64,000 nt of DNA, taken from assembly GCA_012557565.1 (NCBI GenBank), contig GCA_012557565.1_3926.1; one strand, 5' to 3'. A model generated the notes under the pieces. The model was not told the DNA's origin. It ran no database searches and was given only the letters and a program-made list of their open reading frames with translations. A program made the position numbers and the translations under genes. Source of the DNA: a phage. Positions 4,781 to 54,784 of the stretch are shown one piece after another; the stretch's first letter is position 1; every line of letters begins with the position of its first letter.

Positions 4781-5128
4781 ATGACATTTAAAGAATTTTG
4801 TCAAGCAGCTTTTGTAATCATTTTTCTGTTAGGTGTAGGTGCTTGGGGCGGTTACACTTACAAGACTAGCCAAGTTAACGAGAAAGAGTTGACTAATCAG
4901 AAGCTTGTTAGTGTTGCTAAGGATGCTTACCAAGAAGGTTTAGCAAATCTTAGTGCTAATTATAAAAATGATTTGAAAGATGTGCTTGCTAAAAACAAAC
5001 ACACAAAAGAGGTATTGACCTATGAAAAAACTAAGACAGAGTTTTATAATATTTGTGCTACTGAGCCTTATATCGGGGTGTTCAACCAACAAAGTGAACA
5101 GTACCTTCAAAAACTCCCAAGTAAGTGA
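4781..5128 (+). CDS. i-spanin-like protein (N-terminal TM helix plus charged coiled-coil-like domain)
   Basis: N-terminal hydrophobic helix AAFVIIFLLGVGAWGG then K/E-rich region; SD AGGAG upstream; 3' end overlapped by a lipoprotein ORF in another frame. Confidence 0.45.
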   Translation: MTFKEFCQAAFVIIFLLGVGAWGGYTYKTSQVNEKELTNQKLVSVAKDAYQEGLANLSANYKNDLKDVLAKNKHTKEVLTYEKTKTEFYNICATEPYIGVFNQQSEQYLQKLPSK

Positions 5129-5291
5129 GAGTGACAAGTACACTCAGGAAGAGACTAGGTACACTGTCAAGGGTACTAAGGGTGAAGACCTTGCTAGTGC
5201 TATGGAGTTTTATCGTGATGGATTCTATGAATGTGCTATCAAGGCAAACAATTTGATTGATATGATTTTGTTAGGGAATAAACAGCAATGA
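5022..5291 (+). CDS. o-spanin-like outer-membrane lipoprotein
   Basis: Signal peptide with lipobox LISGC (MKKLRQSFIIFVLLSLISGC); start overlaps the 3' end of the i-spanin-like ORF. Confidence 0.45.
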   Translation: MKKLRQSFIIFVLLSLISGCSTNKVNSTFKNSQVSESDKYTQEETRYTVKGTKGEDLASAMEFYRDGFYECAIKANNLIDMILLGNKQQ

Positions 5292-5557
5292 CAGAAAAGA
5301 GTGAAACGTTTTATGTAGAAGGTTACTTACTTCTTCCAAGACCAAGTAACACTTATATGAGAATTGATTTCTTACCAACTATCATGGATGATGTAATGTG
5401 TCACCTGTTTATTCAGGGTATTACAGCACAGTTAAAACATGTTGGAAGAGAATGTAAGATTCGTGTTGACAATCATCCTGAAATCAACGAGAATCACTAC
5501 ATCTGGTTCGGTGAAAACTCCAAAGAAATCTACGCAACGTTAAAAACGAGGAAATGA
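5288..5557 (+). CDS. hypothetical protein
   Basis: 89-aa ORF; ATGA overlap with following small ORF. Confidence 0.45.
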   Translation: MTEKSETFYVEGYLLLPRPSNTYMRIDFLPTIMDDVMCHLFIQGITAQLKHVGRECKIRVDNHPEINENHYIWFGENSKEIYATLKTRK

Positions 5558-5724
5558 TTGTGGACAAACAGAAGCTTCTTAACTTGATTGAAGAGTATGG
5601 TGATACCCGTTTTAATATTGGTATTGCACAGGTTAAAGATTCAATTGAAAACTCTACCTTATGGGAAGAAGCTTCAGAAGCAATCTTACAACAAATTAAA
5701 GAGGTAATCTATAATGGAACTTAA
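5554..5724 (+). CDS. hypothetical small protein (56 aa, not in ORF track)
   Basis: ATG overlapping upstream stop (ATGA); SD GAGGA upstream; reads MIVDKQKLLNLIEEYGDTRF...; hand-translated. Confidence 0.35.
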   Translation: MIVDKQKLLNLIEEYGDTRFNIGIAQVKDSIENSTLWEEASEAILQQIKEVIYNGT

Positions 5725-6040
5725 TGGTAAAACCATTGTAGCCGTCTTCTCAGATAATGAGAAAGATATTGGTGTAGCCCAAGTGACATATGGCAATGGT
5801 GAGTTTCTATATGGTGTAATCGCCATGATTGGTACAAGAGGCGATACCCCAACATTCCAAGATTGTGTACATAAGCTCGAAGAGTCTGTTAGAAATCATT
5901 GGTGTCTCGTTTGGATGAACGATAATGATATCAAAGAGCGTTACGCTAAAATTGGTATTGACATTGTTGGTATTGAACATGTAGACTTATATCAACTAAC
6001 TGAAAAGGTAATGTATGAAAGTTCTAATCGTCAGAAATAA
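5714..6040 (+). CDS. hypothetical protein
   Basis: 108-aa ORF in track. Confidence 0.5.
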   Translation: MELNGKTIVAVFSDNEKDIGVAQVTYGNGEFLYGVIAMIGTRGDTPTFQDCVHKLEESVRNHWCLVWMNDNDIKERYAKIGIDIVGIEHVDLYQLTEKVMYESSNRQK

Positions 6041-6236
6041 AAAGACACGGCAAATTATAGCATCTGGTATCTATGTAGGGAGAAGTGAAGTAATCCCGTT
6101 TACCGAGGTTTTCTCACATAAAGAAACCTTCAAATATTATTTGGATGAAGGCTTCTTACGTTCAAACGTTGAAAGTTTTAAACAGACTTTCACCAGTAAT
6201 CGTACAGTCACTCAAGAGGTAATCTTAAATGGCTGA
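6015..6236 (+). CDS. hypothetical protein
   Basis: 73-aa ORF overlapping neighbours at both ends. Confidence 0.4.
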   Translation: MKVLIVRNKKTRQIIASGIYVGRSEVIPFTEVFSHKETFKYYLDEGFLRSNVESFKQTFTSNRTVTQEVILNG

Positions 6237-6429
6237 TTTCTGCAAGAGTTGTTCTATTGAAATGTTTGGACGTGATACAGGAGACTTGAAAGGTCTTATC
6301 ACTGAAGATGATTTCAAAGCTGGTTATGCTATGCCAACACTCTGTGAAGGTTGTGGTGGAATCTGGGTAGACCATGAAGGGCAACGTGTAAAACCTTCTG
6401 AAGATAAAGAATCGTGGGAGGAATGGTAA
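6229..6429 (+). CDS. small zinc-ribbon-like protein
   Basis: CKSC ... CEGC cysteine pairs; 66 aa; immediately upstream of macro-domain ORF. Confidence 0.45.
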   Translation: MADFCKSCSIEMFGRDTGDLKGLITEDDFKAGYAMPTLCEGCGGIWVDHEGQRVKPSEDKESWEEW

Positions 6430-6430
6430 C

Positions 6431-7225
6431 ATGGGTATCGTAAAAATTATTAAAGGTGATATCTTTAAAGACTTTGATAATAAGAAGTTTGATATCATTG
6501 GTCACGGTTGTAACTGCATGAACTTAATGGGTGCAGGTATTGCAGCAACAATTGCTAAACGTTATCCAAAAGCTTATGAGACTGATGCTGAAGTTTATGC
6601 TACAGTTGGTGGTGAAGGTCATAAACCTAAGCATCTTATGCTTGGTAACATCTCTGTAGCACGTTTTAAGCAGGGTCGAATTGCTAACCTTTACACTCAG
6701 GTTATCACTGGTAAAGATGCACGATACAATGCTTTAGAAGCAGCTTTGCAGCGTCTTAATAACTACTGCAAAGTAAACCAGCTTAAGAAAGTTGGACTTC
6801 CTATGATTGGTGCAGGGATTGGTGGTCTTGATAGCATGGCTGTGCTGTCTATCATCAATCAGACCATGAAAGATGTTGACGTTTATATGTATGTCTATGA
6901 AGATAAGATGTACAGTCAGTTGACTAGTCCGGTTACTGGTTGGGAAAACTTTAGTGAACCTCAATACTTTGATGGTGTTGCCGTGGTAGGCAAGGATAAA
7001 GTTACTCTCAAGGTGAAGCGTAATGGTAAGGTACACACCAGTTACCCTCCGGTTGAGAAGTACAATCGAAGTAACGCTCAAGTTACCCACCCGTTACAAG
7101 GCCATTGTCACAGAGCCGTAACATTTGGTGATGATGCAAGTGTGTATATCGGTGCTGCTACAGAAGAGTTTGCAGAGGATTATATCACACATGAGAATGT
7201 TAACTATGTTGAAGCACGTAACTAA
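6431..7225 (+). CDS. macro-domain-like protein (putative ADP-ribose binding/hydrolase) with C-terminal extension
   Basis: N-terminal KGDIF...IIGHGCNCMNLMGAGIAATI and later LPMIGAGIGGL resemble macro-domain Gly-rich motifs; by-eye match only. Confidence 0.45.
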   Translation: MGIVKIIKGDIFKDFDNKKFDIIGHGCNCMNLMGAGIAATIAKRYPKAYETDAEVYATVGGEGHKPKHLMLGNISVARFKQGRIANLYTQVITGKDARYNALEAALQRLNNYCKVNQLKKVGLPMIGAGIGGLDSMAVLSIINQTMKDVDVYMYVYEDKMYSQLTSPVTGWENFSEPQYFDGVAVVGKDKVTLKVKRNGKVHTSYPPVEKYNRSNAQVTHPLQGHCHRAVTFGDDASVYIGAATEEFAEDYITHENVNYVEARN

Positions 7226-7240
7226 TAAGTTACCTAAATA

Positions 7241-7287
7241 GACATAGACAAGCCCTCCAAAGTTTGAGTTTAAAATCTCAGGTAAGG
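7241..7287 (+). terminator. rho-independent terminator (large loop)
   Basis: AGCCCTCC ... GGAGGGCT inverted repeat followed by TTTTT. Confidence 0.45.
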
Positions 7288-7480
7288 AGGGCTTTTTCAT
7301 TTCAAATTTGTGCAGGTGCAATTGCATAGAACTCTGGACAGATTTCTTTAGCTGAACTCCAAAGGGAAAATTCATTTTCAATTTGTGCAGGTCTAGACTC
7401 CAAAGGGCTTTTTCATTTTCAATCTGTGCAGATGCAGTTGGACTCCAAAGGGAAAATTCATTTTCAATTTGTGCAGGTAG
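7281..7480. repeat. four tandem direct repeats of a 36-bp unit (42-45 bp spacing) containing TGTGCAG
   Basis: Units near 7297, 7347, 7389, 7434: CTCCAAAGGG(AAAA/CTTT)TTCATTTTCAATTTGTGCAGG. Confidence 0.7.
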
Positions 7481-7651
7481 GTAGCTATAGGAAGCAAGAC
7501 CCACCATCCCCTCTTACTCCCCTTCCTCCCAAAAGTCAAGAGAAAAATTTGTAGAGAACTGAAAAATAATTCTTGACTAGTTTTCTGTTTTCTGTTAGTT
7601 GCGTACACGCGTTTCATTCACAACTTTCCAAAAATATTTTTAAAAATTTTG

Positions 7652-7680
7652 TTGACTCTATGAATCCAGTTTTGTAGTAT
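7652..7680 (+). promoter_or_regulatory. sigma70-like promoter
   Basis: TTGACT (7652-7657), 17-nt spacer, TAGTAT (7675-7680); AT-rich upstream. Confidence 0.55.
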
Positions 7681-7732
7681 TTGCATCAACGGGGCAAGCA
7701 AGCCCCAACAATCCTAAACTGGAGAATCTAAG

Positions 7733-7939
7733 ATGTTATATCAACGTGAATTAATGATTGTTGACAACAACAAAACAAAGAAACGCCGTTTTTATATGCT
7801 AATCTGCGACGTTTGGCAACGTATCTCAGAAAAGGATTTTGATAAATATGTTGATACGTCAATCAGGTCTGATTGTTACCTGACAAATCACACAAGACAA
7901 TTTACAAGACATACGGCAATTTATTACTATAACGTTTAA
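7733..7939 (+). CDS. hypothetical early protein
   Basis: 68-aa ORF directly behind conserved leader and promoter. Confidence 0.55.
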   Translation: MLYQRELMIVDNNKTKKRRFYMLICDVWQRISEKDFDKYVDTSIRSDCYLTNHTRQFTRHTAIYYYNV

Positions 7940-7950
7940 AGGGCTTGACA

Positions 7951-8112
7951 ATGATTAAAGAAGGTTATGTAATAAAGTACAAAGGGCAAGACGGATACAC
8001 AAAGTTGGGACGTGTTTTCTATCTCTATACTTCAGTGATGGGCAATGAGTGTATAGCCCTTACAAATGGCGACAAAATAACCATGAAAGATTTTATAAAA
8101 ATTATTTCATAA
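7951..8112 (+). CDS. hypothetical small protein (53 aa, not in ORF track)
   Basis: Hand-translated MIKEGYVIKYKGQDGYTKLG...; no conserved leader. Confidence 0.3.
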   Translation: MIKEGYVIKYKGQDGYTKLGRVFYLYTSVMGNECIALTNGDKITMKDFIKIIS

Positions 8113-8117
8113 AGTAC

Positions 8118-8146
8118 TTTACATGGGGTTTATAAATTGCTAGTAT
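8118..8146 (+). promoter_or_regulatory. sigma70-like promoter embedded in an inverted repeat (representative of several)
   Basis: TTTACA, 17-nt spacer, TAGTAT; arms TGGGGTTTATA / TATAAGCCCCA; near-identical copies near 8590, 8935, 9535, 10595. Confidence 0.5.
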
Positions 8147-8197
8147 AAGCCCCAGATAAAGAGCTTTACCAACAATCCTAAACTGGAGAATCTAAAA

Positions 8198-8578
8198 ATG
8201 AAATATCGTGCGCCTAAATTTATCAACAAAGAAAACTTTCGTGATGCTCTGGAAAATTCCATGAATGAGCAGTTCAAAGGTAAAATCATTGTTGTTCACG
8301 CTTACAATTTTAAGTATGATGTAAATGGTAACAAGATAAACCACTACACCGCTACAATGTTAGATGGTACACTCTCAGGAGAAAAGGCTATTATAAATGC
8401 ACTGGCTGGACGTGGTAAAACGTTAATCCGTTGCGATAAGCGCCGCTATCAAGGAAGTGCTTATGGTTATGAGGATGCAATCTATCATCTTGATAACATG
8501 GGTTACAACGTGGTAAAAGCTGGAGTATCTCAAATGATTGGCAGTGATGGCTATGTAACAATCTTTGAAATTAACTAA
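8198..8578 (+). CDS. hypothetical early protein
   Basis: 126-aa ORF behind conserved leader. Confidence 0.6.
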   Translation: MKYRAPKFINKENFRDALENSMNEQFKGKIIVVHAYNFKYDVNGNKINHYTATMLDGTLSGEKAIINALAGRGKTLIRCDKRRYQGSAYGYEDAIYHLDNMGYNVVKAGVSQMIGSDGYVTIFEIN

Positions 8579-8663
8579 TAAAGTACTTTACATGGGGTTT
8601 ATAGTTCGATAGGATAAGCCCCAGATAAAGAACTTTATCACTAACCTAAACTGGAGTTTTAAA

Positions 8664-8921
8664 ATGGCTACTATCAAAAATATCGTAATTACTGCAAAGT
8701 CCCGTGATGACGCTCGCGCAACTGCTAAAAAATTAAATGGCAAAGTGGTTGACAACGGAAAAGAATCTGCTGTAAGATGGGGTGTGAAGACAGACAAGAA
8801 ATTAACCCTTAAACATAGTTCTTACAACATGTTTAAAGGTGTGAAAACTATCGGTAACACTAACGTATTCACAAAGCAAGGTTACAAAATGCACTTATCA
8901 TTAACTGACAATTTAATCTGA
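8664..8921 (+). CDS. hypothetical early protein
   Basis: 85-aa ORF behind conserved leader. Confidence 0.6.
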   Translation: MATIKNIVITAKSRDDARATAKKLNGKVVDNGKESAVRWGVKTDKKLTLKHSSYNMFKGVKTIGNTNVFTKQGYKMHLSLTDNLI

Positions 8922-9012
8922 TAAAGTGCTTTACATGGGGTTTATAAGTTGTTAGTATAAGCCCCAGATAAAGAGCTTTACTAACCAATAGTCCTAAACT
9001 GGAGATTCTAAA

Positions 9013-9525
9013 ATGAAAACCACTGATGCTATTTTTGAAGTTGTAAAAGAAAAATACACCATTATTTATGCAGCAGTTAATTTCTATGAGCCTTCCCATT
9101 GTGTGGATAACTGGCAATTTACTGATGAGCATAAAGGAGGGATTACAATCAAAGTTAAGAATGCAGAACGTAACAGCTACAAATATGCAATCCCTACGCA
9201 TTACCCACTTTCACAGCTTGCCAGTGACTACGCAAAACAGGGAAGGGATAACCCATCATTGGAAGCTTACAAGAGCTTACAGGATGAGCTAGAAAGGGAT
9301 TTAGAAGCTAATAGTTATATCTTGTATGCCTCAGTAATTGACGCTGAAGGGAACACGGTTTTAAATAGTTTTTCTCTTGCGTACTCTTTTGATTGGTGCT
9401 ATCTTGACGGGGAAGATTTAGAGACACGTTTAGAAGAGGAAGTGTCGAACTCTGACGGGGAGACTGAAGTGATGGAACGTTTAGAAGCCTTGAAAGATTC
9501 AGTTATGAATATCTTTAATATCTAA
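9013..9525 (+). CDS. hypothetical early protein with acidic C-terminus
   Basis: 170-aa ORF behind conserved leader. Confidence 0.6.
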   Translation: MKTTDAIFEVVKEKYTIIYAAVNFYEPSHCVDNWQFTDEHKGGITIKVKNAERNSYKYAIPTHYPLSQLASDYAKQGRDNPSLEAYKSLQDELERDLEANSYILYASVIDAEGNTVLNSFSLAYSFDWCYLDGEDLETRLEEEVSNSDGETEVMERLEALKDSVMNIFNI

Positions 9526-9608
9526 AAGTGCTTTACATGGGGTTATCAAGTTGATAAGATAGCCCCAGATAAAGAGCTTTACCAACAATCCTAAACTGGA
9601 GAATCAAA

Positions 9609-9905
9609 ATGTTTATTGCCGCAAACGTTAGAACTAAATTAAGCCAACTATTAAACAACATTCAATTCATTGAATCTATGCGCCGTCAATCTGAAGCTGT
9701 AGAGTGGTATCATGGAAAGATTAACAAAAAAGAAGTAATAGTTTGTGTATGGAACTTTTGTAGAGAATACAAAAAGCCGTTGCTTCAGGTTGATATCTAT
9801 GATAACACTAACAAGTCATCGATTAAGACCACTAGAGATATGATTGATTCATATGAAATTAGTCACACTGGAAAATTATTTCACAAAGGCGTAAACAAAT
9901 GTTAA
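9609..9905 (+). CDS. hypothetical early protein
   Basis: 98-aa ORF behind conserved leader. Confidence 0.6.
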   Translation: MFIAANVRTKLSQLLNNIQFIESMRRQSEAVEWYHGKINKKEVIVCVWNFCREYKKPLLQVDIYDNTNKSSIKTTRDMIDSYEISHTGKLFHKGVNKC

Positions 9906-10246
9906 TCACATATACAGCTATTTTTATCTCTATTGTGGCGCTCTATAAAGCCTTTAAAGCGCATCAGTTAGCTAATAAGGCAATCACAAGGGATTTAAAA
10001 ATAAACCTTGTAAGGGGCTTTATAGAGCGTTTAAGCTTGGAACAATTGAAACGTTTAGAGATGAGCTTTCGATTTAAAGCGGAGACATACAGAATCGACA
10101 ACATTCTAGCAGGTGATTTTAAGCTAATTAGTGATTATGACATACTGTTAGAAGCAATTCAAGATATAAATTTAAAAGATTATTACATCGTAATAGCTCA
10201 AGAAATTAATAAAAAAGAGCTTGCAATGAAAAACCAAAACAAGTAA
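9899..10246 (+). CDS. hypothetical membrane protein
   Basis: 115-aa ORF with N-terminal hydrophobic helix; start overlaps upstream stop; 3' end carries promoter-like TTGCAA...TAAAGT. Confidence 0.5.
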   Translation: MLITYTAIFISIVALYKAFKAHQLANKAITRDLKINLVRGFIERLSLEQLKRLEMSFRFKAETYRIDNILAGDFKLISDYDILLEAIQDINLKDYYIVIAQEINKKELAMKNQNK

Positions 10247-10311
10247 AGTATTTATCAACGGGGAGGGAAAACTCCCCCACTAAGCAAAATTCCTAAACTG
10301 GAGAATCTAAA

Positions 10312-10584
10312 ATGTATACAACTAACAATGGTCATACCCTTAATGTAACTCTAAAGCACTATGTAGACGGTGTATTGAACTTTGAAGAGTTAAGAGCAGA
10401 ACAGCATTTATTAGACTGGCAAGTAGCAGGACTGCAAAAAACTGCTACGGGGTACGGTACAAAAATTCCTACATCTTGGAAAGTACGCTATTTAGGAAAG
10501 TTACGAAGAATTTATCAAGATGTTTATAGCAATAGTGGTGTAAGTTACATTATTGTTAACGGTAAAAAGTTGTATTTAGTCTAA
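10312..10584 (+). CDS. hypothetical early protein
   Basis: 90-aa ORF behind conserved leader. Confidence 0.6.
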   Translation: MYTTNNGHTLNVTLKHYVDGVLNFEELRAEQHLLDWQVAGLQKTATGYGTKIPTSWKVRYLGKLRRIYQDVYSNSGVSYIIVNGKKLYLV

Positions 10585-10672
10585 TAAATTGCTTTACATG
10601 GGGTTATCAGGTTGATAAGATAGCCCCAGATAAAGAGATTTATCTGACACTAACCTAAACTGGAGAATCAAA

Positions 10673-11080
10673 ATGACTACTATTAATCATAAAGAAGTTG
10701 CAATTCTGAAAGCACGTTTGACTATTAACCGTATCAACATTGTCACATCAGCAGCACCAGATGAAACATTGCATAATATTATTGGTAAAATTCAGGGTGT
10801 AGTAGTAGATGTAAAACAGATTAAAGAAGCTTTACAAGACGTAGCAGCGGGGGCTATAATTGACGGCGCACAATATGAAATGCAGGAAATGCTTTCAAAA
10901 TCTAGAGTAATGAATAAAGAATTAGACTTGAAGATGTTTCGATTTGCTGTTAAAGTATGGCTATGTGTTGATTTTGATGCTAACTTTGCAATAGCTGATT
11001 TCTTTGCTACATGGTTACAGCGTAATTTACCATCAGAAAAATTTCGTGAAATTTGCGATGCAATTTATTCAGAAATTTGA
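10673..11080 (+). CDS. hypothetical early protein
   Basis: 135-aa ORF behind conserved leader. Confidence 0.6.
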   Translation: MTTINHKEVAILKARLTINRINIVTSAAPDETLHNIIGKIQGVVVDVKQIKEALQDVAAGAIIDGAQYEMQEMLSKSRVMNKELDLKMFRFAVKVWLCVDFDANFAIADFFATWLQRNLPSEKFREICDAIYSEI

Positions 11081-11161
11081 TTGACACTGCAAAAACATAG
11101 TAGTAAAGTACACATCAACGGGGCAAGCAAGCCCCAACAATCCTAAACTGGAGAATCTAAA

Positions 11162-11719
11162 ATGAAATGCTTTCATGGTACTACTCAAGAAAACTTTTTA
11201 AACCTTATCAATGGCGGTGAAAAACCATCAGGGGCTTGGAATTGCTCTGATATGGATGGATGTTTTTACGTGTACCCTGTTAATAAGTTCTATGATGTAG
11301 AAAGTTTAGACGACGAACAAATCACAAACGAAGGTATTAGAAACGCGCTTGATAGCGCAAGCATTACAGCAGCGTATCAAATGAAGTCTCAAAAACTTGT
11401 TATCTTGGAACTTGACATTCCAGAGGAAGATTTACAAGATGACTGGAGTTGTGAGAATATGAGCGACGTTGCAAGCTTTACAGAATACTTTGATAAGGCA
11501 TGGATTAAAAAGATTTACACAACTGAATTTAACGCTATGTTTTCACCTTTCTTTGTTCCTAATCTGAATAACAAAAATTTGGGGTATATGCCTGACGAAC
11601 TACACAACATTGCAACAATGGTACAGCGTAGCGATGAAATGAATAATGTGTATATAGATATCTATGAATCTATGCACGAAAACGTAGCAGAAACGGCTTT
11701 AAGCGATTTAACAGCATAA
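11162..11719 (+). CDS. hypothetical early protein (acidic)
   Basis: 185-aa ORF behind conserved leader. Confidence 0.6.
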   Translation: MKCFHGTTQENFLNLINGGEKPSGAWNCSDMDGCFYVYPVNKFYDVESLDDEQITNEGIRNALDSASITAAYQMKSQKLVILELDIPEEDLQDDWSCENMSDVASFTEYFDKAWIKKIYTTEFNAMFSPFFVPNLNNKNLGYMPDELHNIATMVQRSDEMNNVYIDIYESMHENVAETALSDLTA

Positions 11720-11782
11720 ACTATAGAATCGTACCAGTTAACTAGAAAATCCCCGCATAGGGGCTTACAAGAGGCTTAAATA

Positions 11783-12013
11783 ATGCTTACAACAATCTAT
11801 CTTATCCTGTCTATTTGCAACGGCTCACAATGTGACTTCAAAGGATTAGAAGAGTTTACAGGAAGCGAAAACAATGCTATTGTAGCATGTCAGATAGCAA
11901 GGCAAGACTATCCCACATCGGATGATATACAGTGTTACTATAAATCAGAAGATGAGGAGGGGATTTACTTTGATAGTGTGAATGGTGAATATGAAATTCT
12001 TATTGAAAAGTAG
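11783..12013 (+). CDS. hypothetical small secreted/lipoprotein-like protein
   Basis: 76-aa ORF with N-terminal hydrophobic segment MLTTIYLILSICNGSQC; own SD AAGAGG; different leader. Confidence 0.45.
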   Translation: MLTTIYLILSICNGSQCDFKGLEEFTGSENNAIVACQIARQDYPTSDDIQCYYKSEDEEGIYFDSVNGEYEILIEK

Positions 12014-12100
12014 TTGACACTGGAAACGCAAACAAGTAAAGTATTTATCAACGGGGAGGGAATGACCTTCCCCAACAATCCTAAACTGGAGAATCTAAAA

Positions 12101-12442
12101 ATGGCATACGTAACAATTATCACTGATAAAGAAAACTCTTCTTGGTCTACACAAGTAAACGACAAAATGACACCTATGCAATGCCTCAAATACTTTGAGC
12201 AATGGAACAGGGGGGAAGATGTAAGTCCTTTCCAAGTAATGCAGGTTGTGCATGTTGACAATGAAGGGAACAAAACTACACTTAACACTGAATACTATGC
12301 TACACGTTTTGATACTCGCAAAGAAGCTATGCGGGAACTAAGAGAAAAGGGCTATAGTCACATTGCCGCTTTGATTTGGTCTGATTTGCTTAAAAAACAA
12401 GCATTAACCTATGTCAAGCCAGAAAAAATCTTTATAAGCTAA
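12101..12442 (+). CDS. hypothetical early protein (start trimmed from track 12014 to the leader ATG)
   Basis: Track ORF runs through the promoter and leader; the ATG at 12101 sits immediately behind the conserved leader. Confidence 0.55.
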   Translation: MAYVTIITDKENSSWSTQVNDKMTPMQCLKYFEQWNRGEDVSPFQVMQVVHVDNEGNKTTLNTEYYATRFDTRKEAMRELREKGYSHIAALIWSDLLKKQALTYVKPEKIFIS

Positions 12443-12640
12443 TCAATGACTTACAAAAATCTTTGAAAAAACTGTTGACAATACCCCTTGACATTGATAG
12501 ATTTGTTCGAGGGGGTTTATCTAAAGGGATTCACTTAAAAGATTCTTTATAGATAAGCTGAAAATTCTCTTGCAATGGGTTATCAAAATCTGTATAGTTT
12601 CAATCAAGCAATGAAACAATCCTAAACTGGAGAATCTAAG

Positions 12641-12778
12641 ATGTTAGAAGTCATTAAAAACCCTATCTTGTGTGGAATGATTGTATCTTTCGTTATTCCT
12701 TTTGGTCTTCTGATAGCAAGTGAAATTCAAGATTATTTCTTCAATAAAAAGCTTGCAATGACCAACAAAAACAAGTAA
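12641..12778 (+). CDS. hypothetical small membrane peptide (45 aa, not in ORF track)
   Basis: Conserved leader immediately upstream; hydrophobic core; C-terminus resembles that of ORF 9899-10246. Confidence 0.45.
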   Translation: MLEVIKNPILCGMIVSFVIPFGLLIASEIQDYFFNKKLAMTNKNK

Positions 12779-12840
12779 AGTACTTATCAACGGGGAAGGA
12801 TAGGACTTCCCCACTAAATCCTAAACTGGAGAATCTAAAA

Positions 12841-13368
12841 ATGAATAAGTTTCAAGCTATCAATCATATCCGTTCCAATGCCGTGATGAGCAAGCCAGTA
12901 AAAGACACTTTCGAATTTCGCTGCAATGACAAGTTGTTTGCAGTCATTACGAAAGGGGAGGATAAAAAATATTATGTACATCGCCAAAACGTTAAGGTAG
13001 TAACAGCAGATAACTTTATGCAAGCTGTTGCAACAATCCTCCCTGATTTTATGGCACTAGTCGCAGAACTTTGTGAACATTGCATCAAATCATCAAAAGA
13101 AGAGTTAAACCGCTTTAAAATGGCTTATGAGCGCTCTATCAAGTCCCATAACATGTATATCATGCCGTTGGCACATGGGATTATGGCGATGGGTACAGGT
13201 TGCCACCCTTGCAAGCTTTACGACGTAGAAAACATCTATCTAAGCGAGACAAAAGACAGTGATTTTAACTTACAGTTAGGGCAAGCATTGAATGATATGA
13301 TTAAACTACACGAAAAATCTGTAAAAGATATGGAAAAAGAGCTTGACGAAATCATCAGAACTCTATAA
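12841..13368 (+). CDS. hypothetical early protein
   Basis: 175-aa ORF behind conserved leader. Confidence 0.6.
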   Translation: MNKFQAINHIRSNAVMSKPVKDTFEFRCNDKLFAVITKGEDKKYYVHRQNVKVVTADNFMQAVATILPDFMALVAELCEHCIKSSKEELNRFKMAYERSIKSHNMYIMPLAHGIMAMGTGCHPCKLYDVENIYLSETKDSDFNLQLGQALNDMIKLHEKSVKDMEKELDEIIRTL

Positions 13369-13427
13369 AGTACTCATCAACGGGGAGGGAATGACCTTCC
13401 CCAACAATCCTAAACTGGAGACTAGAA

Positions 13428-13691
13428 ATGAATAACGCAGAAATCACTATCCTGTTACAGATTGGTACTGACAAAGAAGATATCCAACTTTGCAAACGTA
13501 TAGAAAGTGACTGGTTTAACGGTGAAATCATCGCAGAATCTTATGAAGTAGTTGGATTCATGAATGGTGAAATTGTAAGCCATTTCGGTTTAACTAAATC
13601 TGAAGCCGTTGCAAAGTATGACGTTTTATCTTGTGAGATTCTTACAAAATACAATGAAAAAAGACTTGCAACTTATGCAGCAATGAATTAA
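13428..13691 (+). CDS. hypothetical early protein
   Basis: 87-aa ORF behind conserved leader. Confidence 0.6.
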   Translation: MNNAEITILLQIGTDKEDIQLCKRIESDWFNGEIIAESYEVVGFMNGEIVSHFGLTKSEAVAKYDVLSCEILTKYNEKRLATYAAMN

Positions 13692-13756
13692 TATTACTTT
13701 CAACGGGGAGGGAATGACCTTCCCCACTAAACAACCCTAAACTGGAGACTTAAAAG

Positions 13757-13933
13757 ATGAATTTTGAACAGCGTATGATTGCAAAATTTGGTGCTAAACG
13801 TTGGGAAGAAATGAAAAAAGAGCATGAAGAAAAGAAAAATGAAGAGATGGTAGTCATCACTGGTACAGACTTGTTAAATCATTCAGTTACTAACTACATC
13901 ATTTCCGGTAACTCTTACAAGAAAGTGATTTAA
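13757..13933 (+). CDS. hypothetical small protein (58 aa, not in ORF track)
   Basis: Conserved leader variant upstream; hand-translated MNFEQRMIAKFGAKRWEEMKK... Confidence 0.4.
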   Translation: MNFEQRMIAKFGAKRWEEMKKEHEEKKNEEMVVITGTDLLNHSVTNYIISGNSYKKVI

Positions 13934-14009
13934 AGTATTGACAAGGGGGCTTCAAAGCCCCTACTATAGAGACTCAATAAACAATAATCCTAAACTGGAG
14001 ATTCTAAAA

Positions 14010-14258
14010 ATGGCAACTATCCGCGCAACTGTTAACAATTTTGGTTTTTATGCTCTGGACGTTAAGTTTGACATGGTAAACACTGGAAATGCTTTTGATA
14101 TGGTTGATATGTGTCTGAAAGCAACTGTGAAAGAATACAACCCTGCTGAATGGTTCTGGAAAGAAACGAAAGAGGAGATTTTAGCAAATGGCGTTTTATC
14201 TTACTATTGGGGCGATTCTCTTATCTCTATCTATTACGATAAAGAAGGCCGCAACTAA
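14010..14258 (+). CDS. hypothetical early protein (start trimmed from track 13938)
   Basis: ATG at 14010 behind conserved leader; promoter with hairpin in spacer at about 13938-13970. Confidence 0.55.
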   Translation: MATIRATVNNFGFYALDVKFDMVNTGNAFDMVDMCLKATVKEYNPAEWFWKETKEEILANGVLSYYWGDSLISIYYDKEGRN

Positions 14259-14300
14259 CAAGACGCCGCAACGGGGCAAATAGCCCCAGACACCTTTACA

Positions 14301-14321
14301 GCCCCTTCAATGGGGCTTTTT
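14301..14321 (+). terminator. rho-independent terminator ending the early array
   Basis: GCCCC-TTCAAT-GGGGC hairpin followed by TTTTT. Confidence 0.6.
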
Positions 14322-14699
14322 GACGTCTATACAGAACCCTTCCTAGAATCTTACCAGACCTTTAGAATAATAACTCTATAGCTTACTCTATATCATCTTA
14401 TCAAGTCAACTAACTTTTCCCTTAAATATAAGCCCATAACCCGAAAGGGAAGGGCAATCCCTAAAACGCCCTAAAACGCTCTATACGGGCTTATCATCTC
14501 ATCTTAAGCAATCATATTAACCACTTCTTAAAAGCCCTTTATAGAGCTTTCTAGAGCCTTAAAAGAATCTTATAAGGGGTATAAGCTTTATTATCTCGTT
14601 AGTATCTTGTGAATAGTTAAACAGGGGCTTGATAATAGCTTCAAAGTATGCTATGGAGTCTAAAAAGAGCTTAAAAGTAACGTAAAAGTTAGCCCCCTT

Positions 14700-15200
14700 T
14701 ACATTCTCTTAACAAAATCTTAACAAATGCAACATAGTTATGCTTGTTAGCCCCTTGTTAAATCCTTGTTAGTGGTATGTTAAGAGCTTGTTAGACACTT
14801 TGAAGTCCCTGTATAAGCCCCTGTAAAGGGCTATAAAGAGCTATATAGTCAGTTGGGCTATAGATACTAGTAAGAACCTTAGAAGAGGTCACACAGAGCT
14901 ATACAGGGCTTTTAAGAGGTATGTTTAGAGAATCACTGAGAGGGATAGGGAACGATAAGAGAAGAGATAGTGACCATGTTAATAGATTGTTAAACATGTT
15001 AAGAACTTAATAGACACTTGTTAATAATCTTAACAAAATAACTTTTAAATTTAACATGTTAGGGACTTGTTAGCATCTTGTTAGAACCTTGTAAGAACTG
15101 TTAAGCACTTGTTACACCCTTGTTAGTTCTGTTAAGAAACTGTTAAGAACTTTAGAGACTTGTTAGGGACTTGTTAGAGTTGTAAAGAAATTGTTAATGA
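14700..15200. repeat. cluster of short phased repeats (CTTGTTAG / CTGTTAAG and inverse TTAACAA), about 10-12 bp apart
   Basis: 15 or more copies of TTGTTA(G/A) or TGTTAAG, densest at 15055-15180; no ORF over 60 aa. Confidence 0.7.
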
Positions 15201-15265
15201 TATTTTAAGATTTTGCAAAGGGGATGTTACAGGGCTGTTAAGGGCTACTAAGCAGATATACATCC

Positions 15266-15289
15266 ATGAGGTAGATTCTACCGAATCCA
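15266..15289. repeat. 24-bp element ATGAGGTAGATTCTACCGAATCCA, copy 1
   Basis: Near-identical second copy at 15889-15912; each contains an internal palindrome. Confidence 0.6.
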
Positions 15290-15589
15290 CTAGTAGATAT
15301 TTTTCAGATTCTCCCAAGAACCTAAAAAGTGACCTACCTAGTCTATTTTATAAAAATTTTATAGAACTGAATAACTATCTATACACTATCTTATATAAAA
15401 CAGGAATTAACAGGCTTATAAGATATCTTGTTAGTAACGTGTTAGACCTTGTAGGATAAGCCTTAGAAGGGAATACCTGTTTAGTGTTATATAACAGTCT
15501 ATATAGAGGCTTAGTAATCCCTAGTGATTCTGCTATATAGGGTACTATCTTGGACATAATGGGTTACTGTTAAGTAACACAGATAACCT

Positions 15590-15790
15590 AGAGATTAAGA
15601 TGGGTATAGGGGCTTCTAAGGGGCTAGGAAGAGGTTAGGAAGGTGATTGTATAGGGTTGATTAATGGTAGGCTTAGAAGGCTTTATAGAGGGCTATATAG
15701 AGAGCACTATTTAGGGACTAAGAGGCTATATAGATACTATATAATACTATATAGAGATGATGCTTAGAGAGGGTGTTTAGAAGGGTATAG
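15590..15790. repeat. second short-repeat cluster (GGCTATATAGAG-like and CTTAGAAGG-like motifs)
   Basis: Repeated CTATATAG and TTAGAAGG words; further copies near 14840, 15461, 15500, 15530. Confidence 0.6.
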
Positions 15791-15888
15791 ATATTTTATC
15801 ACATATCATGGTGACCCAAGATGAACGGAGTGAATCCCAAATTTTATAAAAATATAAATTTCGTAAATTTTACTCAATAAAAACCCCT

Positions 15889-15912
15889 ATGAGATAGATT
15901 CTATCGAATCCA
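15889..15912. repeat. 24-bp element ATGAGATAGATTCTATCGAATCCA, copy 2
   Basis: Matches copy 1 at 22 of 24 positions; lies just beyond the 3' end of minus-strand CDS 15933-16604. Confidence 0.6.
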
Positions 15913-15932
15913 TTTTAAGGGGCTGTATAGTC

Positions 15933-16604
15933 TTACATCAATTCACTAAGCATGGCTTGCAATGAAGTTTTAGAAGTCTGGAAGAAGTGTGTGAACCCAT
16001 TATGACGTTCTCTTACCTGAATCATTATCTGGTCACCCTTAATCGGGTGTGAACTAATATGGTATTCATTCATGTTCAGTACAACACCCAAACCATCTAT
16101 AATGTGTCTGAGTATGTCATATTCAACAAATTCTTCTTTACCTGTGACCTTGATACAAACACCTTTGTTGGTTCTCTTAGGGTTTATATCTTCCATAACC
16201 AGCATTTGTTGTCCACCAAGAGAAATCATAGAGAACTCTTTACGGTTCTGCTGCTTAACATACATCTCAAGTTTCTTCAAAGTATCTTCAAAGAACGGAT
16301 AAGATTTCTTGACAAAGATACCTTCAAGTGGCTCTTTACCTGAATCTTCTCGTTCCATCTTAAGTCGATTAACAAGTAATTCTAAAGACCACTTCTCACT
16401 TTCATCAAGATATGTATTGATATCATCTAGACTCAGTACCAGATACTTTCTTTCAAGTTCAAACTTTTTCATCTCTATCAAATCCTTAAAACATTTCTTA
16501 GTAATTGCTTCCCATTCTTCGGAGTTCTTTCTCTTCCTCTTCAGATGGGGAACCATATCTGTTAAGTTCTTCCAACTCTTCTTCAGTAGGTGTCCCATAA
16601 TCAC
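15933..16604 (-). CDS. hypothetical protein
   Basis: 223-aa ORF; last gene of the minus-strand block. Confidence 0.55.
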   Translation of the reverse strand: MIMGHLLKKSWKNLTDMVPHLKRKRKNSEEWEAITKKCFKDLIEMKKFELERKYLVLSLDDINTYLDESEKWSLELLVNRLKMEREDSGKEPLEGIFVKKSYPFFEDTLKKLEMYVKQQNRKEFSMISLGGQQMLVMEDINPKRTNKGVCIKVTGKEEFVEYDILRHIIDGLGVVLNMNEYHISSHPIKGDQIMIQVRERHNGFTHFFQTSKTSLQAMLSELM

Positions 16605-54503: not shown

Positions 54504-54589
54504 TTACCTTGTTGACTAACTGTCAAGATGGTGTTAATATTTCTTAGTAGGTATTCTCACCATCTTGGCTCAAGAAGTAAGGTGATTAA

Positions 54590-54784
54590 ATGCCAACCAT
54601 TCTAGCAATCCTCATGAAAAACCTTGGGGCATTCTTTTGGAAGCTTCTTTTTTCTCTTCTCAGTGAATACATGATTGAAAAAGTGTTCTTTAAGCTTGCA
54701 AGATACCTTGCGAGTAAAACAGATACACCTATTGATGATGAATTTATAGATACCTTGGAAAAGGCTTTTAAAGGTGAGAAATAA
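54590..54784 (+). CDS. hypothetical small membrane protein
   Basis: 64-aa ORF with N-terminal hydrophobic segment. Confidence 0.4.
   Translation: MPTILAILMKNLGAFFWKLLFSLLSEYMIEKVFFKLARYLASKTDTPIDDEFIDTLEKAFKGEK

What the first reader, a model, noticed from the sequence alone, without database searches (positions are those of the whole stretch)
7652..14321. Array of about 17 small early ORFs built from repeated promoter / stem-loop / leader cassettes
Between 7.65 and 14.3 kb nearly every small ORF (45-185 aa, none recognisable) has its own sigma70-like promoter and stem-loop, and 14 share a near-identical ~30-nt leader ending ...ATCCTAAACTGGAGAATCTAAAATG. Two promoter flavours recur: TTTACA-N17-TAGTAT embedded in an inverted repeat TGGGGTTTATA/TATAAGCCCCA (five copies), and a GGGGAGGG...TTCCCC hairpin placed just downstream of a TAAAGT -10 (six copies), sometimes overlapping the 3' end of the preceding ORF. 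The ORFs are unrelated to each other while the flanking cassettes are conserved, which is the signature of modular shuffling. This resembles what I recall as promoter-early stem-loop (PeSL) cassettes in T4-type phages, but here the structural module is not T4-like. The ORFs are candidate host-takeover or anti-defence genes.
Basis: partly seen in the sequence, partly recalled or inferred. Interest (0 to 1): 0.75.

Follow-up and report, generated by a model that had tools for sequence, protein, structure and literature searches.

The report
Shuffling promoter–hairpin–leader gene cassettes
In a Felix O1-type phage, 17 small genes of unknown function sit in a row of repeated promoter, hairpin and ribosome-site cassettes, and related phages swap these genes one at a time at the repeated leader, as already described for T4-type phages.

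Summary
Window 7652-14321 holds 17 unrelated + strand ORFs of 45-185 aa. Fourteen follow an exact CCTAAACTGGAG core (0.37 expected), each with a -35/-10 pair at 17-18 nt spacing, and 13 of these have a G4...C4 hairpin at fixed geometry.

The window is a Felix O1-like myovirus (Ounavirinae). Its structural genes are 99.7% identical to Citrobacter phage KMM4, but the array is about 80% identical with unaligned stretches.

Across about 25 relatives, ORFs are gained, lost, duplicated and moved. The nearest relative changes at almost every cassette. At lenient settings every high-identity block ends in a leader.

The hairpins are conserved structures with compensatory changes. Their G·U pairs work only on the sense strand. 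Type A is really a roughly 22-bp interrupted helix that encloses its own promoter.

This behaves like the PeSL cassettes of T4-type phages, in a different lineage, with an added invariant leader. It is partly published: the 26-bp repeat (Mordin, 2015) and direct repeats (Felix O1, 2010) were noted without interpretation.

Promoter activity and the hairpins' roles (5' stabiliser, processing site) are inferred, not shown.

The parts
7652..14321 (+). Whole array: 17 small ORFs and 14 promoter/hairpin/leader cassettes, lying between a terminator-like inverted repeat upstream (7236-7308) and a canonical terminator at the end
   Evidence: Terminators are annotated at the matching places in Moogle and Mordin and listed as t13 and t23 in Felix O1.
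7652..7732 (+). Cassette 1 (hairpin downstream of the -10): TTGACT-N17-TAGTAT, hairpin 7691-7706 (GGGGCAAGCAAGCCCC), leader core 7713-7724, ATG of W7 at 7733
   Evidence: It is 78% identical over 103 nt to the cassette at 11062-11164 (family D15).
8110..8197 (+). Type A cassette: interrupted helix 8110-8168 (outer stem TAAAGTACTTTA with TAAAGAGCTTTA; inner hairpin 8125-8153) enclosing the promoter TTTACA 8118 -N17- TAGTAT 8146; leader core 8177-8188; ATG of W9 at 8198
   Evidence: RNAfold -26.8 kcal/mol, z -3.8. Pair counts. Coordinates.
8579..8663 (+). Type A cassette: promoter 8587-8615 (TTTACA-N17-TAGGAT), inner hairpin 8594-8622, core 8645-8656, ATG of W10 at 8664
8922..9012 (+). Type A cassette: promoter 8930-8958 (TTTACA-N17-TAGTAT), inner hairpin 8937-8965, core 8993-9004, ATG of W11 at 9013
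9523..9608 (+). Type A cassette with the variant stem GGGGTTATC/GATAGCCCC: promoter 9532-9560 (TTTACA-N17-TAAGAT), hairpin 9539-9566, core 9590-9601, ATG of W12 at 9609
10221..10311 (+). Type B cassette: TTGCAA-N17-TAAAGT (10221-10249) lying inside the 3' end of W13; hairpin 10260-10277; core 10292-10303; ATG of W14 at 10312
10584..10672 (+). Type A cassette: promoter 10593-10621 (TTTACA-N17-TAAGAT), hairpin 10600-10627, core 10654-10665, ATG of W15 at 10673. Its outer stem carries the compensated pair TAAATT with AGATTTA.
11081..11161 (+). Cassette with hairpin downstream of the -10: TTGACA-N17-TAAAGT, hairpin 11120-11135, core 11142-11153, ATG of W16 at 11162. The 98%-identity block with phiSUSP1 ends here, and the Mordin-like block starts at 11134.
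12014..12100 (+). Type B cassette: TTGACA-N17-TAAAGT, hairpin 12053-12073 (GGGGAGGGAATGACCTTCCCC), core 12080-12091, ATG of W18 at 12101. The Mordin-like block ends at 12100.
12570..12640 (+). Cassette without a hairpin: TTGCAA-N17-TATAGT, core 12621-12632, ATG of W19 at 12641. It follows a 128-nt spacer that carries further TTGACA boxes.
12753..12840 (+). Type B cassette: TTGCAA-N17-TAAAGT inside the 3' end of W19, hairpin 12792-12812, core 12820-12831, ATG of W20 at 12841. The blocks shared with Moogle and S.Kent start at 12817.
13343..13427 (+). Type B cassette: TTGACG-N17-TAAAGT inside the 3' end of W20, hairpin 13382-13402, core 13409-13420, ATG of W21 at 13428. The S.Kent block ends at 13430.
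13666..13756 (+). Type B cassette: TTGCAA-N17-TAATAT inside the 3' end of W21, hairpin 13705-13725, core 13736-13747, ATG of W22 at 13757. The Moogle block ends at 13759.
13938..14009 (+). Cassette with the hairpin in the promoter spacer: TTGACA-N18-TACTAT, hairpin 13945-13961, core 13989-14000, ATG of W23 at 14010. This cassette follows W22 in all three genomes that have W22.
14269..14321 (+). End of the array: a last CAACGGGGCAAATAGCCCCAGA hairpin without a leader, then the terminator AGCCCCTTCAATGGGGCTTTTT
   Evidence: Terminators are annotated at the same place in Moogle and Mordin.
11162..11719 (+). W16 (185 aa), the largest ORF: a weak ADP-ribosyltransferase or Tpt1-like fold. It is the orthologue (64% identity) of Bas63 gp107.

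Best explanation
This is the hyperplastic early-gene region of a Felix O1-like myovirus. It is built from self-contained expression cassettes that work like the PeSL cassettes of T4-type phages.

Anatomy (shown). Each unit reads: leader 3' half (GGAG, 6-10 nt, ATG), then the ORF, then a sigma70-type promoter (TT[G/T]ACA-N17-TAnnnT; TAAAGT in the Felixounavirus genus), then a G4...C4 hairpin, then the leader 5' half (CAACAATCCTAAACT).

Gene exchange (shown by comparison). The 12-nt core with its flanks is 19-32 nt of near-identity repeated every 200-900 bp. It is where related genomes recombine. ORFs with their downstream promoter and hairpin are therefore replaced, deleted, inserted, duplicated and moved one cassette at a time, and every arrival lands behind a ready ribosome site and brings a promoter for its neighbour.

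Expression (inferred). Host RNA polymerase starts at every cassette soon after infection. In the seven cassettes whose hairpin lies 10 nt after the -10, the transcript would begin 2-4 nt before a stable GC hairpin. Such a 5' stem-loop is known to shield E. coli mRNA from RppH and RNase E. In type A cassettes the hairpin, extended by the TAAAGTRCTTTA and TAAAGAGCTTTA arms to a roughly 22-bp interrupted helix, encloses the -35, the -10 and the predicted start site. It can therefore fold only in RNA read through from upstream. There it most likely acts as an intercistronic processing site or 3'-end barrier, like the RNase III sites of the T7 early region, or as an attenuator. The unstructured A/C-rich leader is a strong, portable translation initiation region. 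A single canonical terminator closes the array.
For: Identity and setting. The window is an Ounavirinae phage. Against its nearest relative KMM4 the structural genes are 98-100% identical, while 9-13 kb is about 80% identical with 18-63% unaligned at 11-14 kb. That is the lowest in the window.

Geometry. All 14 cassettes have a -35/-10 pair at 17-18 nt. The hairpin starts exactly 11 nt after the -10 in 7 of 7 downstream-hairpin cassettes, and 1 nt after the -35 in 5 of 5 type A cassettes. Eleven of 14 pass a strict promoter rule at a fixed distance (P about 8e-6).

Structure.
- The type A inner stem of 9 bp is kept across 22 distinct variants, with double changes at three positions (TA/AT; AT/TA; TA/CG/AT).
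- A U.G pair in 20 of 22 variants would be C.A on the other strand.
- In the outer stem 97% of cells are paired. One pair shows GC 31, UA 10, AU 1, GU 3. A second U.G pair occurs in 39 of 48 sequences. None of 500 shuffles reached the covariation score, and slid controls give 31-61% pairing.
- Folding energy is -26.8 kcal/mol, z -3.8.

Leader. CCTAAACTGGAG is unchanged in 172 of 183 copies across 14 genomes whose ORFs differ by 15-45%. A 16-mer containing the core occurs in IMG/VR in multiple copies only in contigs of about 81-91 kb. One real cassette sits in a 62-kb contig, and the other single hits lack cassette context.

Exchange.
- ORFs are present or absent as whole units.
- x11 sits in two contexts, the x5/y7 order is swapped, and Michonne has a 430-bp tandem duplication of W10 plus its cassette.
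- Promoter/hairpin class is predicted by the upstream ORF (0.30 bit of residual entropy) better than by the downstream ORF (0.65 bit).
- The best relative changes cassette by cassette: W7-15 phiSUSP1 96-99.8%, W16-17 Mordin 95%, W20 S.Kent 99%, W21 Sf13 97%, W22 ESh22 98%, W23 KMM4 99%.
- All 13 internal ends of blocks at 94% identity or more lie within 7 nt of a leader interval. With a strict X-drop, 22 of 71 ends fall in the 8% of sequence that is leader.

Timing. The Felix O1 orthologues ORF16, 20, 21 and 22 peak at 5 min by RT-PCR.

Recombination proficiency. Bas63 gave about 30% recombinants in PhageMaP against about 2% for T7.

Precedent. PeSL cassettes have the same parts, and their mini-circle crossovers map between the -10 and the ATG.
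Against: No transcription start, 3' end or processing site has been mapped for any Felix O1-like phage that I could find. All promoter and RNA roles are inferred from sequence.

TAAAGT and TTGCAA are only 4/6 matches each. Three cassettes fail the strict promoter rule, and the overall count of promoter-like sites is not above shuffles.

Felix O1 ORF17, 19 and 23 peak at 25 min, not 5 min.

The hairpins have no U tract, so the terminator function shown for PeSLs cannot simply be assumed.

Many covarying sequences are orthologous copies, so there are few independent compensatory events, perhaps 2-4 for the outer stem.

Mosaicism is not limited to cassettes. The cassette-free ORFs W1-W4 just upstream are also mosaic, at 99-100% to Moogle and 64-78% to KMM4. 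With strict settings most block ends lie outside leaders.

The Michonne duplication joins AAAATG to CTTTACA by microhomology, not leader to leader.

An invariant 8 nt 5' of the SD is more than a ribosome site needs. That leaves room for a sequence-specific factor.
Confidence: 0.7

Rival explanations
1. The invariant core is above all an RNA operator. A phage or host factor recognises CCUAAACUGGAG on all array mRNAs and switches them off, or cuts them, together after the early phase. It could be a RegA-like translational repressor or a RegB-like nuclease that cuts GGAG. On this reading, recombination at the leader is a by-product of conservation imposed by regulation.
For: Eight nucleotides 5' of GGAG are fully conserved (2 bits each) in 172 of 183 copies, while positions further upstream and the SD-ATG spacer vary. 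The motif is confined to one co-regulated block. Every SD in the array is GGAG, the tetranucleotide that T4 RegB cuts (established knowledge of T4). The analogous SAS motif of cluster K mycobacteriophages is also suspected of an expression role.
Against: No RegA- or RegB-like protein or other candidate was identified. I did not scan the whole proteome. No Rfam family matches. Frequent recombination and gene conversion among copies could by itself keep a short repeat uniform. This rival does not exclude the main explanation.
Confidence: 0.25
2. The hairpins are transcription terminators or attenuators, as shown for PeSLs. Each ORF would then be an insulated monocistronic unit. The hairpins would not be 5' stabilisers or processing sites.
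For: PeSL stem-loops of the same G4...C4 kind reduced downstream lacZ expression about as much as known terminators. The hairpin always lies between the stop codon of one ORF and the SD of the next. It travels with the upstream ORF, as a 3' element would.
Against: None is followed by a U tract. The scan found no + strand terminator-like site inside the array, while a canonical terminator is present at the array end. In 7 of 7 cases the 11-nt distance from the -10 puts the hairpin at the 5' end of the new transcript, and termination alone does not explain that geometry.
Confidence: 0.3
3. There is no special shuffling. An ancestral array held all the ORFs in one order, lineages lost different ones, and ordinary homologous recombination occurs anywhere in the region. 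The cassettes are simply conserved regulatory DNA.
For: Gene order is largely collinear across genomes. The neighbouring cassette-free ORFs W1-W4 are mosaic too. With strict alignment settings 49 of 71 block ends lie outside leaders.
Against: x11 lies before W18 in Sf13 but after W18/W19 in ESh22 and EcSzw-2. The x5/y7 order is inverted between two contigs. Michonne has a tandem duplication of W10. All 13 ends of the long blocks coincide with leaders. Leader intervals are 3.8-fold enriched for ends even with strict settings. Deletions remove exactly one ORF plus one cassette and leave one intact cassette.
Confidence: 0.1
4. This is a dedicated cassette-exchange system. The strand-specific hairpins fold in single-stranded DNA, as integron attC sites do, and an unidentified phage recombinase excises and inserts ORF cassettes at the core.
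For: The stems are strand-asymmetric, with G.T tolerated on one strand only. The core is invariant next to a variable hairpin. Cassettes have single ORFs and one orientation. The PeSL authors raised a similar idea and detected mini-circles.
Against: No integrase or recombinase was seen next to the array (annotations). Breakpoints map to the leader, not the hairpin. The hairpin positions are explained by their fixed relation to promoter elements. G.U asymmetry is equally expected for an RNA structure.
Confidence: 0.06

Closest known systems
PeSL (promoter-early stem-loop) cassettes of T4-type phages (Arbiol et al. 2010, PMC2839356; Comeau et al. 2014, PMC4122927)
   Same: Both are composite intergenic units made of a strong sigma70-like promoter, an A/T-rich upstream stretch, a G4...C4 stem-loop at variable positions relative to the promoter, and an SD plus ATG. 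The positions seen here are in the spacer, overlapping the -10, and downstream of the -10. Both are clustered in hyperplastic regions full of ORFans. Insertions and deletions between close relatives are bounded by the cassettes, and crossovers fall between the -10 and the ATG. The TTTACA -35 resembles the GTTTAC of T4 early promoters (my own knowledge).
   Different: The phage lineage differs (Ounavirinae, not T4-like) and there is no sequence homology. Here a 12-nt core is invariant in about 94% of copies, whereas PeSLs are looser consensus elements. The type A stem-loop extends to a roughly 22-bp helix that encloses the whole promoter. Neither promoter, terminator nor mini-circle activity has been tested here.
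[quoted passage not shown] 2011, PMC3203893)
   Same: Both are short asymmetric conserved motifs that contain the ribosome-binding site, lie a few nt upstream of many start codons and face one way, and many have an inverted repeat with a variable spacer just upstream. The function of SAS is unknown. The Mordin authors made this comparison themselves (PMC4611695).
   Different: The sequence is unrelated (GGGATAGGAGCCC). The phages are temperate siphoviruses of Actinobacteria, and SAS are scattered through the genome rather than in one array. The SAS authors found little support for an RNA hairpin in the ESAS repeats, whereas here the stems covary. No link to promoters or to gene shuffling was described for SAS.
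RNase III processing sites between T7 early genes, and 5' stem-loop stabilisers such as the ompA 5' UTR (established E. coli and T7 biology, from my own knowledge)
   Same: T7 has an interrupted helix of about two turns in each intergenic gap of a read-through early transcript, immediately upstream of the next SD. For ompA, a stable hairpin within 2-4 nt of the 5' end protects the mRNA.
   Different: No cleavage or stabilisation has been shown here. The T7 sites do not contain promoters. The helix here is AU-rich in its lower part and has not been checked against RNase III determinants.
Morons of lambdoid phages and integron gene cassettes
   Same: Both are single accessory genes that bring or find their own expression signals, accumulate in a tolerated region, and vary in presence between relatives.
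   Different: Morons are not flanked by a shared repeat. Integron cassettes are promoterless and need an integrase with attC/attI sites. Here every cassette has a promoter and no integrase is evident.

Membership tests
PeSL cassettes (T4-type phages) | sigma70-like early promoter with an A/T-rich upstream stretch in an intergenic gap | tested here: met
   All 14 cassettes have TT[G/T]ACA-like -35 and TAnnnT -10 boxes at 17-18 nt. Eleven of 14 pass a strict rule at a fixed distance. A-rich runs precede the -35. Activity was not measured.
PeSL cassettes (T4-type phages) | Stable stem-loop, often polyG...polyC with G-T pairs, placed in one of several positions relative to the promoter | tested here: met
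   Thirteen of 14 cassettes have a G4...C4 hairpin of -7.5 to -14.6 kcal/mol. It lies in the spacer or over the -10 in six and downstream of the -10 in seven. G.U pairs and compensatory changes are documented.
PeSL cassettes (T4-type phages) | SD and start codon of the downstream gene at the 3' end of the element | tested here: met
   GGAG lies 6-10 nt before the ATG in 182 of 183 copies.
PeSL cassettes (T4-type phages) | Concentrated in hyperplastic regions of ORFans, with differences between close relatives bounded by the elements | tested here: met
   The array is the most divergent part of the window against KMM4. All ORFs are of unknown function. Insertions, deletions and block ends fall at cassettes.
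PeSL cassettes (T4-type phages) | Measured promoter strength and terminator or attenuator activity | not testable with these tools
   This needs reporter fusions or 5'/3'-end mapping. No U tract follows the hairpins.
PeSL cassettes (T4-type phages) | Formation of ORF-containing mini-circles by recombination between flanking elements | not testable with these tools
   This needs inverse PCR or long reads from infected cells.
PeSL cassettes (T4-type phages) | Host genome is a T4-like myovirus | tested here: not met
   The window is Felix O1-like (Ounavirinae: Mooglevirus/Suspvirus). I therefore file it as working like a PeSL, not as a member by descent.
SAS/ESAS (cluster K mycobacteriophages) | 13-bp asymmetric motif matching GGGATAGGAGCCC, 3-8 bp upstream of start codons | tested here: not met
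   The position and the inclusion of the SD are analogous, but the sequence is CCTAAACTGGAG against the consensus quoted.
SAS/ESAS (cluster K mycobacteriophages) | About half of the sites have 17-bp imperfect inverted repeats with a variable spacer immediately upstream | tested here: inconclusive
   Inverted repeats are present upstream of 13 of 14 leaders, but they have a different length and sequence. Unlike ESAS, they covary as a hairpin.
Intrinsic (rho-independent) terminator | GC-rich hairpin followed directly by a U tract | tested here: not met
   No + strand site was found inside the array. Only the element at 14300-14321 fits (annotated in relatives).
Integron gene cassette | Promoterless ORF with an attC site, plus an integrase and attI | tested here: not met
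   Every cassette carries a promoter-like site. No integrase is annotated near the array in nine relatives.
RNase III processing site (T7 early type) | Interrupted double-stranded RNA of about 20 bp or more in a read-through transcript, cleaved by host RNase III | tested here: inconclusive
   The length and interrupted shape fit (6 + 5 + 10-11 bp) and the helix is conserved. Cleavage cannot be tested here, and no Rfam model matches.

The most novel reading that the evidence does not exclude
The invariant CCTAAACT-GGAG core together with the strand-specific hairpins is not just passive homology. It would be the recognition site of a dedicated factor: either a recombinase that excises and inserts ORF cassettes, giving an integron-like gene-capture system in a virulent phage, or a global RNA-binding switch that controls the whole accessory-gene set at once.
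Probability: 0.12. Interest if true: 0.8.

Novelty: new variant of a known kind. Interest (0 to 1): 0.5.

Why it matters
If the reading holds, cassette-mediated modular shuffling is not peculiar to T4-type phages. It would be a convergent way for large virulent phages to keep a rapidly exchangeable toolbox of accessory genes that are always expressed.

The Felix O1 group suits testing. The core is nearly invariant, so breakpoints can be read directly from genome comparisons. Hundreds of genomes exist. One member, Bas63, already has a genome-wide knockout method and defence-system screens (PMC11482910).

The cassettes also give a simple rule for finding candidate host-takeover and anti-defence genes in these phages, which are used for Salmonella typing, biocontrol and therapy. 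They offer compact portable expression units for phage engineering as well.

Tried and rejected
- Rfam scan of 7000-16000 at E up to 1 gave only a chance miRNA hit.
- Pfam on the ten largest ORFs gave nothing above cut-off. PHROGs gave ten different families of unknown function.
- The overall count of promoter-like sites is not enriched over shuffles. I therefore used position relative to the leader instead.
- I considered TAAAGT upstream of the type A hairpin as the real -10, in parallel with type B, and rejected it. No -35 lies 17-18 nt upstream in any copy, whereas TTTACA-N17-TAnnnT is kept in all variants and reads TAAAGT in Felix O1 and Bas63.
- By eye, I found no complementarity of the leader to the 3' end of 16S rRNA beyond GGAG. 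No tool was run for this.
- Literature searches for mapped transcription starts in Felix O1-like phages found none. Two searches were wasted on loose term settings.
- Single leader 16-mer hits in unrelated IMG/VR contigs lack any cassette context and are chance, except L041, which is a real cassette in a 62-kb contig.
- Strict X-drop BLAST fragmented the blocks and blurred the breakpoint signal. I report both settings.
- EcSzw-2's roughly 1-kb insert between x5 and W16 is in an UNVERIFIED record with Ns. I treated it as a possible misassembly and did not use it.

Full report
**What is there.** Window 7652-14321 carries 17 + strand ORFs of 45-185 aa. The 12-mer CCTAAACTGGAG occurs 14 times, all on the + strand and all within 7713-13989. 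Shuffles give 0.37 on average. Each copy sits 7-9 nt before an ATG. The ORFs are unrelated to each other. They fall in separate PHROGs of unknown function and have no Pfam family above threshold. Three ORFs (W8, W13, W17) have no cassette and abut or overlap the ORF before them.

**Source.** The window is a Felix O1-like myovirus (Ounavirinae, near Mooglevirus and Suspvirus). Its 20-kb structural block is 99.7% identical to Citrobacter phage BSwM KMM4. Window 7400-11162 is 98.2% identical to phiSUSP1, and the match stops exactly at a leader. Against KMM4 the window is 98-100% identical over 31-53 kb. Over 9-13 kb it is about 80% identical, with 18-63% unaligned per kb across 11-14 kb. That is the most divergent stretch. 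The array is therefore a hyperplastic region in the sense used for T4-type phages.

**Anatomy of the cassettes.** All 14 have a -35/-10 pair at 17 nt (one at 18 nt).
- Five are type A: TTTACA-N17-TA(G/A)(T/G)AT, with GGGG starting 1 nt after the -35.
- Seven have the hairpin downstream: TTGACA, TTGCAA, TTGACG or TTGACT, then N17, then TAAAGT, TAGTAT or TAATAT. The first G of the hairpin lies exactly 11 nt after the end of the -10 in all seven.
- One has the hairpin in the spacer (13938).
- One has no hairpin (12570).

By a strict sigma70 rule, 11 of 14 have a site at a fixed distance from the leader (P about 8e-6). The raw number of promoter-like sites in this AT-rich DNA is not above shuffles. 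In several type B cassettes the -35 and -10 lie inside the 3' end of the preceding ORF. As a result the unrelated W13 and W19 end in similar tails, KKELAMKNQNK and KKLAMTNKNK. In Felix O1 and Bas63 the type A -10 reads TAAAGT, as in type B. This argues that these hexamers really are the promoter.

**The hairpins are conserved structures on the sense strand.**
- Across 11 genomes there are 115 hairpin copies of 43 distinct sequences.
- The type A inner stem of 9 bp is kept in 22 variants, with double compensatory changes at three positions.
- It has a U.G pair in 20 of 22 variants, and that pair would be a C.A mismatch on the other strand.
The flanking TAAAGTRCTTTA and TAAAGAGCTTTA also pair, giving an interrupted helix of about 22 bp (-26.8 kcal/mol, z -3.8).
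- On an alignment of 48 distinct copies, 97% of cells pair. One pair shows GC 31, UA 10, AU 1, GU 3. Another is U.G in 39 and U-A in 8. No shuffle reaches the covariation score, and sliding the partner drops pairing to 31-61%.
- Many copies are orthologues, so independent events are few.

The helix contains the -35, the -10 and the predicted start site. It can therefore fold only in RNA read through from upstream. No Rfam family matches.

**The leader.** In 14 genomes, 172 of 183 leaders keep the exact 12-mer. Eight carry the variant TTAAACTAGGAG, which is seen in Bas63. Positions further 5' and the SD-ATG spacer vary. A 16-mer containing the core was scanned against IMG/VR. It occurs in multiple copies only in contigs of about 81-91 kb, clustered in one region of each. 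One real cassette sits in a 62-kb contig (L041). The other single hits in unrelated contigs lack cassette context.

**Evidence for shuffling.**
1. Relatives differ by whole ORF-plus-cassette units. The variable ORFs include W7/8, W9/10, x5, W16/17, x7, x11, x12, x14, y7, y14, W19, W20, W21 and W22.
2. Positions change. x11 lies before W18 in Sf13 but after W18/W19 in ESh22 and EcSzw-2. x5 and y7 are in opposite order in two contigs. Michonne has a perfect 430-bp tandem duplication of W10 with its cassette, joined by microhomology between AAAATG and the type A flank.
3. The promoter/hairpin class follows the upstream ORF, with conditional entropy of 0.30 bit against 0.65 bit for the downstream ORF. 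For example x11 is always followed by type A whatever comes next, and W22 is always followed by the spacer-hairpin cassette. The moving unit is therefore leader 3' half, ORF, promoter and hairpin, leader 5' half.
4. The window's own array is a patchwork. W7-15 match phiSUSP1 at 96-99.8%, W16-17 Mordin at 95%, W18 nothing above 85%, W19 Silverhawkium at 88%, W20 S.Kent at 99%, W21 Sf13 at 97%, W22 ESh22 at 98% and W23 KMM4 at 99%.
5. With lenient extension, all 13 internal ends of blocks at 94% identity or more fall within 7 nt of a leader interval. With a strict X-drop the blocks fragment and 22 of 71 ends fall in leader intervals, which cover 8% of the array.

Two caveats apply. The cassette-free ORFs W1-W4 to the left are mosaic too. 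Order is largely collinear, so much of the variation is replacement and loss rather than transposition.

**How it most likely works.**
- Shown by comparison: the leader is the joint at which cassettes are exchanged.
- Inferred from geometry and from established E. coli and phage biology: host RNA polymerase starts at each cassette.
- Inferred: transcripts of downstream-hairpin cassettes begin 2-4 nt before a GC hairpin, the arrangement known to protect mRNAs such as ompA from 5'-end-dependent decay.
- Inferred: the type A helix forms only in read-through RNA. There it could be a processing site or 3' barrier like the RNase III sites of the T7 early region, or an attenuator as shown for PeSLs.
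- Inferred: the unstructured A/C-rich leader is a portable translation start.
- Observed: a hairpin without a leader and one canonical terminator close the array (t23 in Felix O1).

Support for early timing is limited. Felix O1 ORF16, 20, 21 and 22 peak at 5 min, but ORF17, 19 and 23 peak at 25 min.

**What is already known.** The Mordin announcement (2015) reports a 26-bp repeat, CCAACAATCCTAAACTGGAGAATCTA, upstream of 8 genes, likens it to the SAS of cluster K mycobacteriophages and leaves its role open. Its GenBank record annotates the repeat. The Felix O1 paper (2010) lists the 57-bp and 39-bp direct repeats, which are the type A and type B elements, without interpretation. It states that temporal control is not understood. 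PeSL cassettes and their role in modular shuffling are described only for T4-type phages. The exact core sequence occurs in no other relevant paper in the library. New here are four things: the link between these observations, the extended covarying helix, the definition of the unit, and the breakpoint evidence.

**Verdict.** I rate it a new variant of a known kind: it works like a PeSL, in another lineage, with an invariant SAS-like leader as the joint. Interest is moderate.

Noticed in passing
[not shown]
   Followed up: partly
window 14322-15930: About 1.6 kb has no ORF of 80 aa or more and no tRNA. It is packed with 20 or more iteron-like CTTGTTAG / CTGTTAAG words at 10-11 nt phasing, plus TATAGAGGGCT-type repeats. 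It may be an origin or packaging region.
   Followed up: no
window 7275-7478: Four direct copies of a 43-nt unit (...CTCCAAAGGGAAAATTCATTTTCAATTTGTGCAGGT) lie in the gap between the macro-domain gene and the first array promoter. They overlap a small minus-strand ORF (7393-7617).
   Followed up: no
window 10211-10249 and 12743-12781: The unrelated ORFs W13 and W19 end in near-identical tails (KKELAMKNQNK and KKLAMTNKNK) because the type B promoter, including the stop codon inside TAAAGT, lies within their 3' ends. Regulatory DNA is being read as protein.
   Followed up: partly
window 8639-8682, 10648-10691, 14010-14024: Leader homology runs into the first codons. W10 (MATIKN), W15 (MTTINH) and W23 (MATIRA) share N-terminal codons, and W7 and W19 share an identical 32 nt through ATGTTA. 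Either crossovers reach into the ORF or there is selection on the initial codons.
   Followed up: no
L022 (Citrobacter phage Michonne) 7008-7864: A perfect 430-bp tandem duplication of W10 plus its cassette has the junction AAAATG|CTTTACA. It creates a 9-codon mini-ORF behind a full leader.
   Followed up: yes
L052 (Bas63) 4850-10250: In the Felixounavirus genus a second leader variant, CCTTAAACTAGGAG, coexists with the standard core in the same array. The type A -10 there is TAAAGT.
   Followed up: partly
window 26099-26879 and 29259-29802: Inside the cluster of 25 tRNA genes, a 47-nt element (TTTACAGAAGACCGTTTACAGCAAACA...) recurs four times. A 272-nt unit containing tRNA-Arg(ACG) is tandemly duplicated at 74% identity, and the second copy was not called as a tRNA.
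   Followed up: no
window 53000-55000, 20000-21000, 27000-28000: These are other local drops in identity to KMM4: 45% aligned at 53-54 kb at the 3' end of the 791-aa ORF 52128-54503 (function not checked), and 88% at 20-21 kb and 27-28 kb. They contrast with a background of 98-100%.
   Followed up: no
L009 (EcSzw-2) between x5 and W16: About 1 kb of the iteron-like non-coding sequence sits inside the array in this UNVERIFIED record, which contains Ns. It is probably an assembly or permutation artefact.
   Followed up: no
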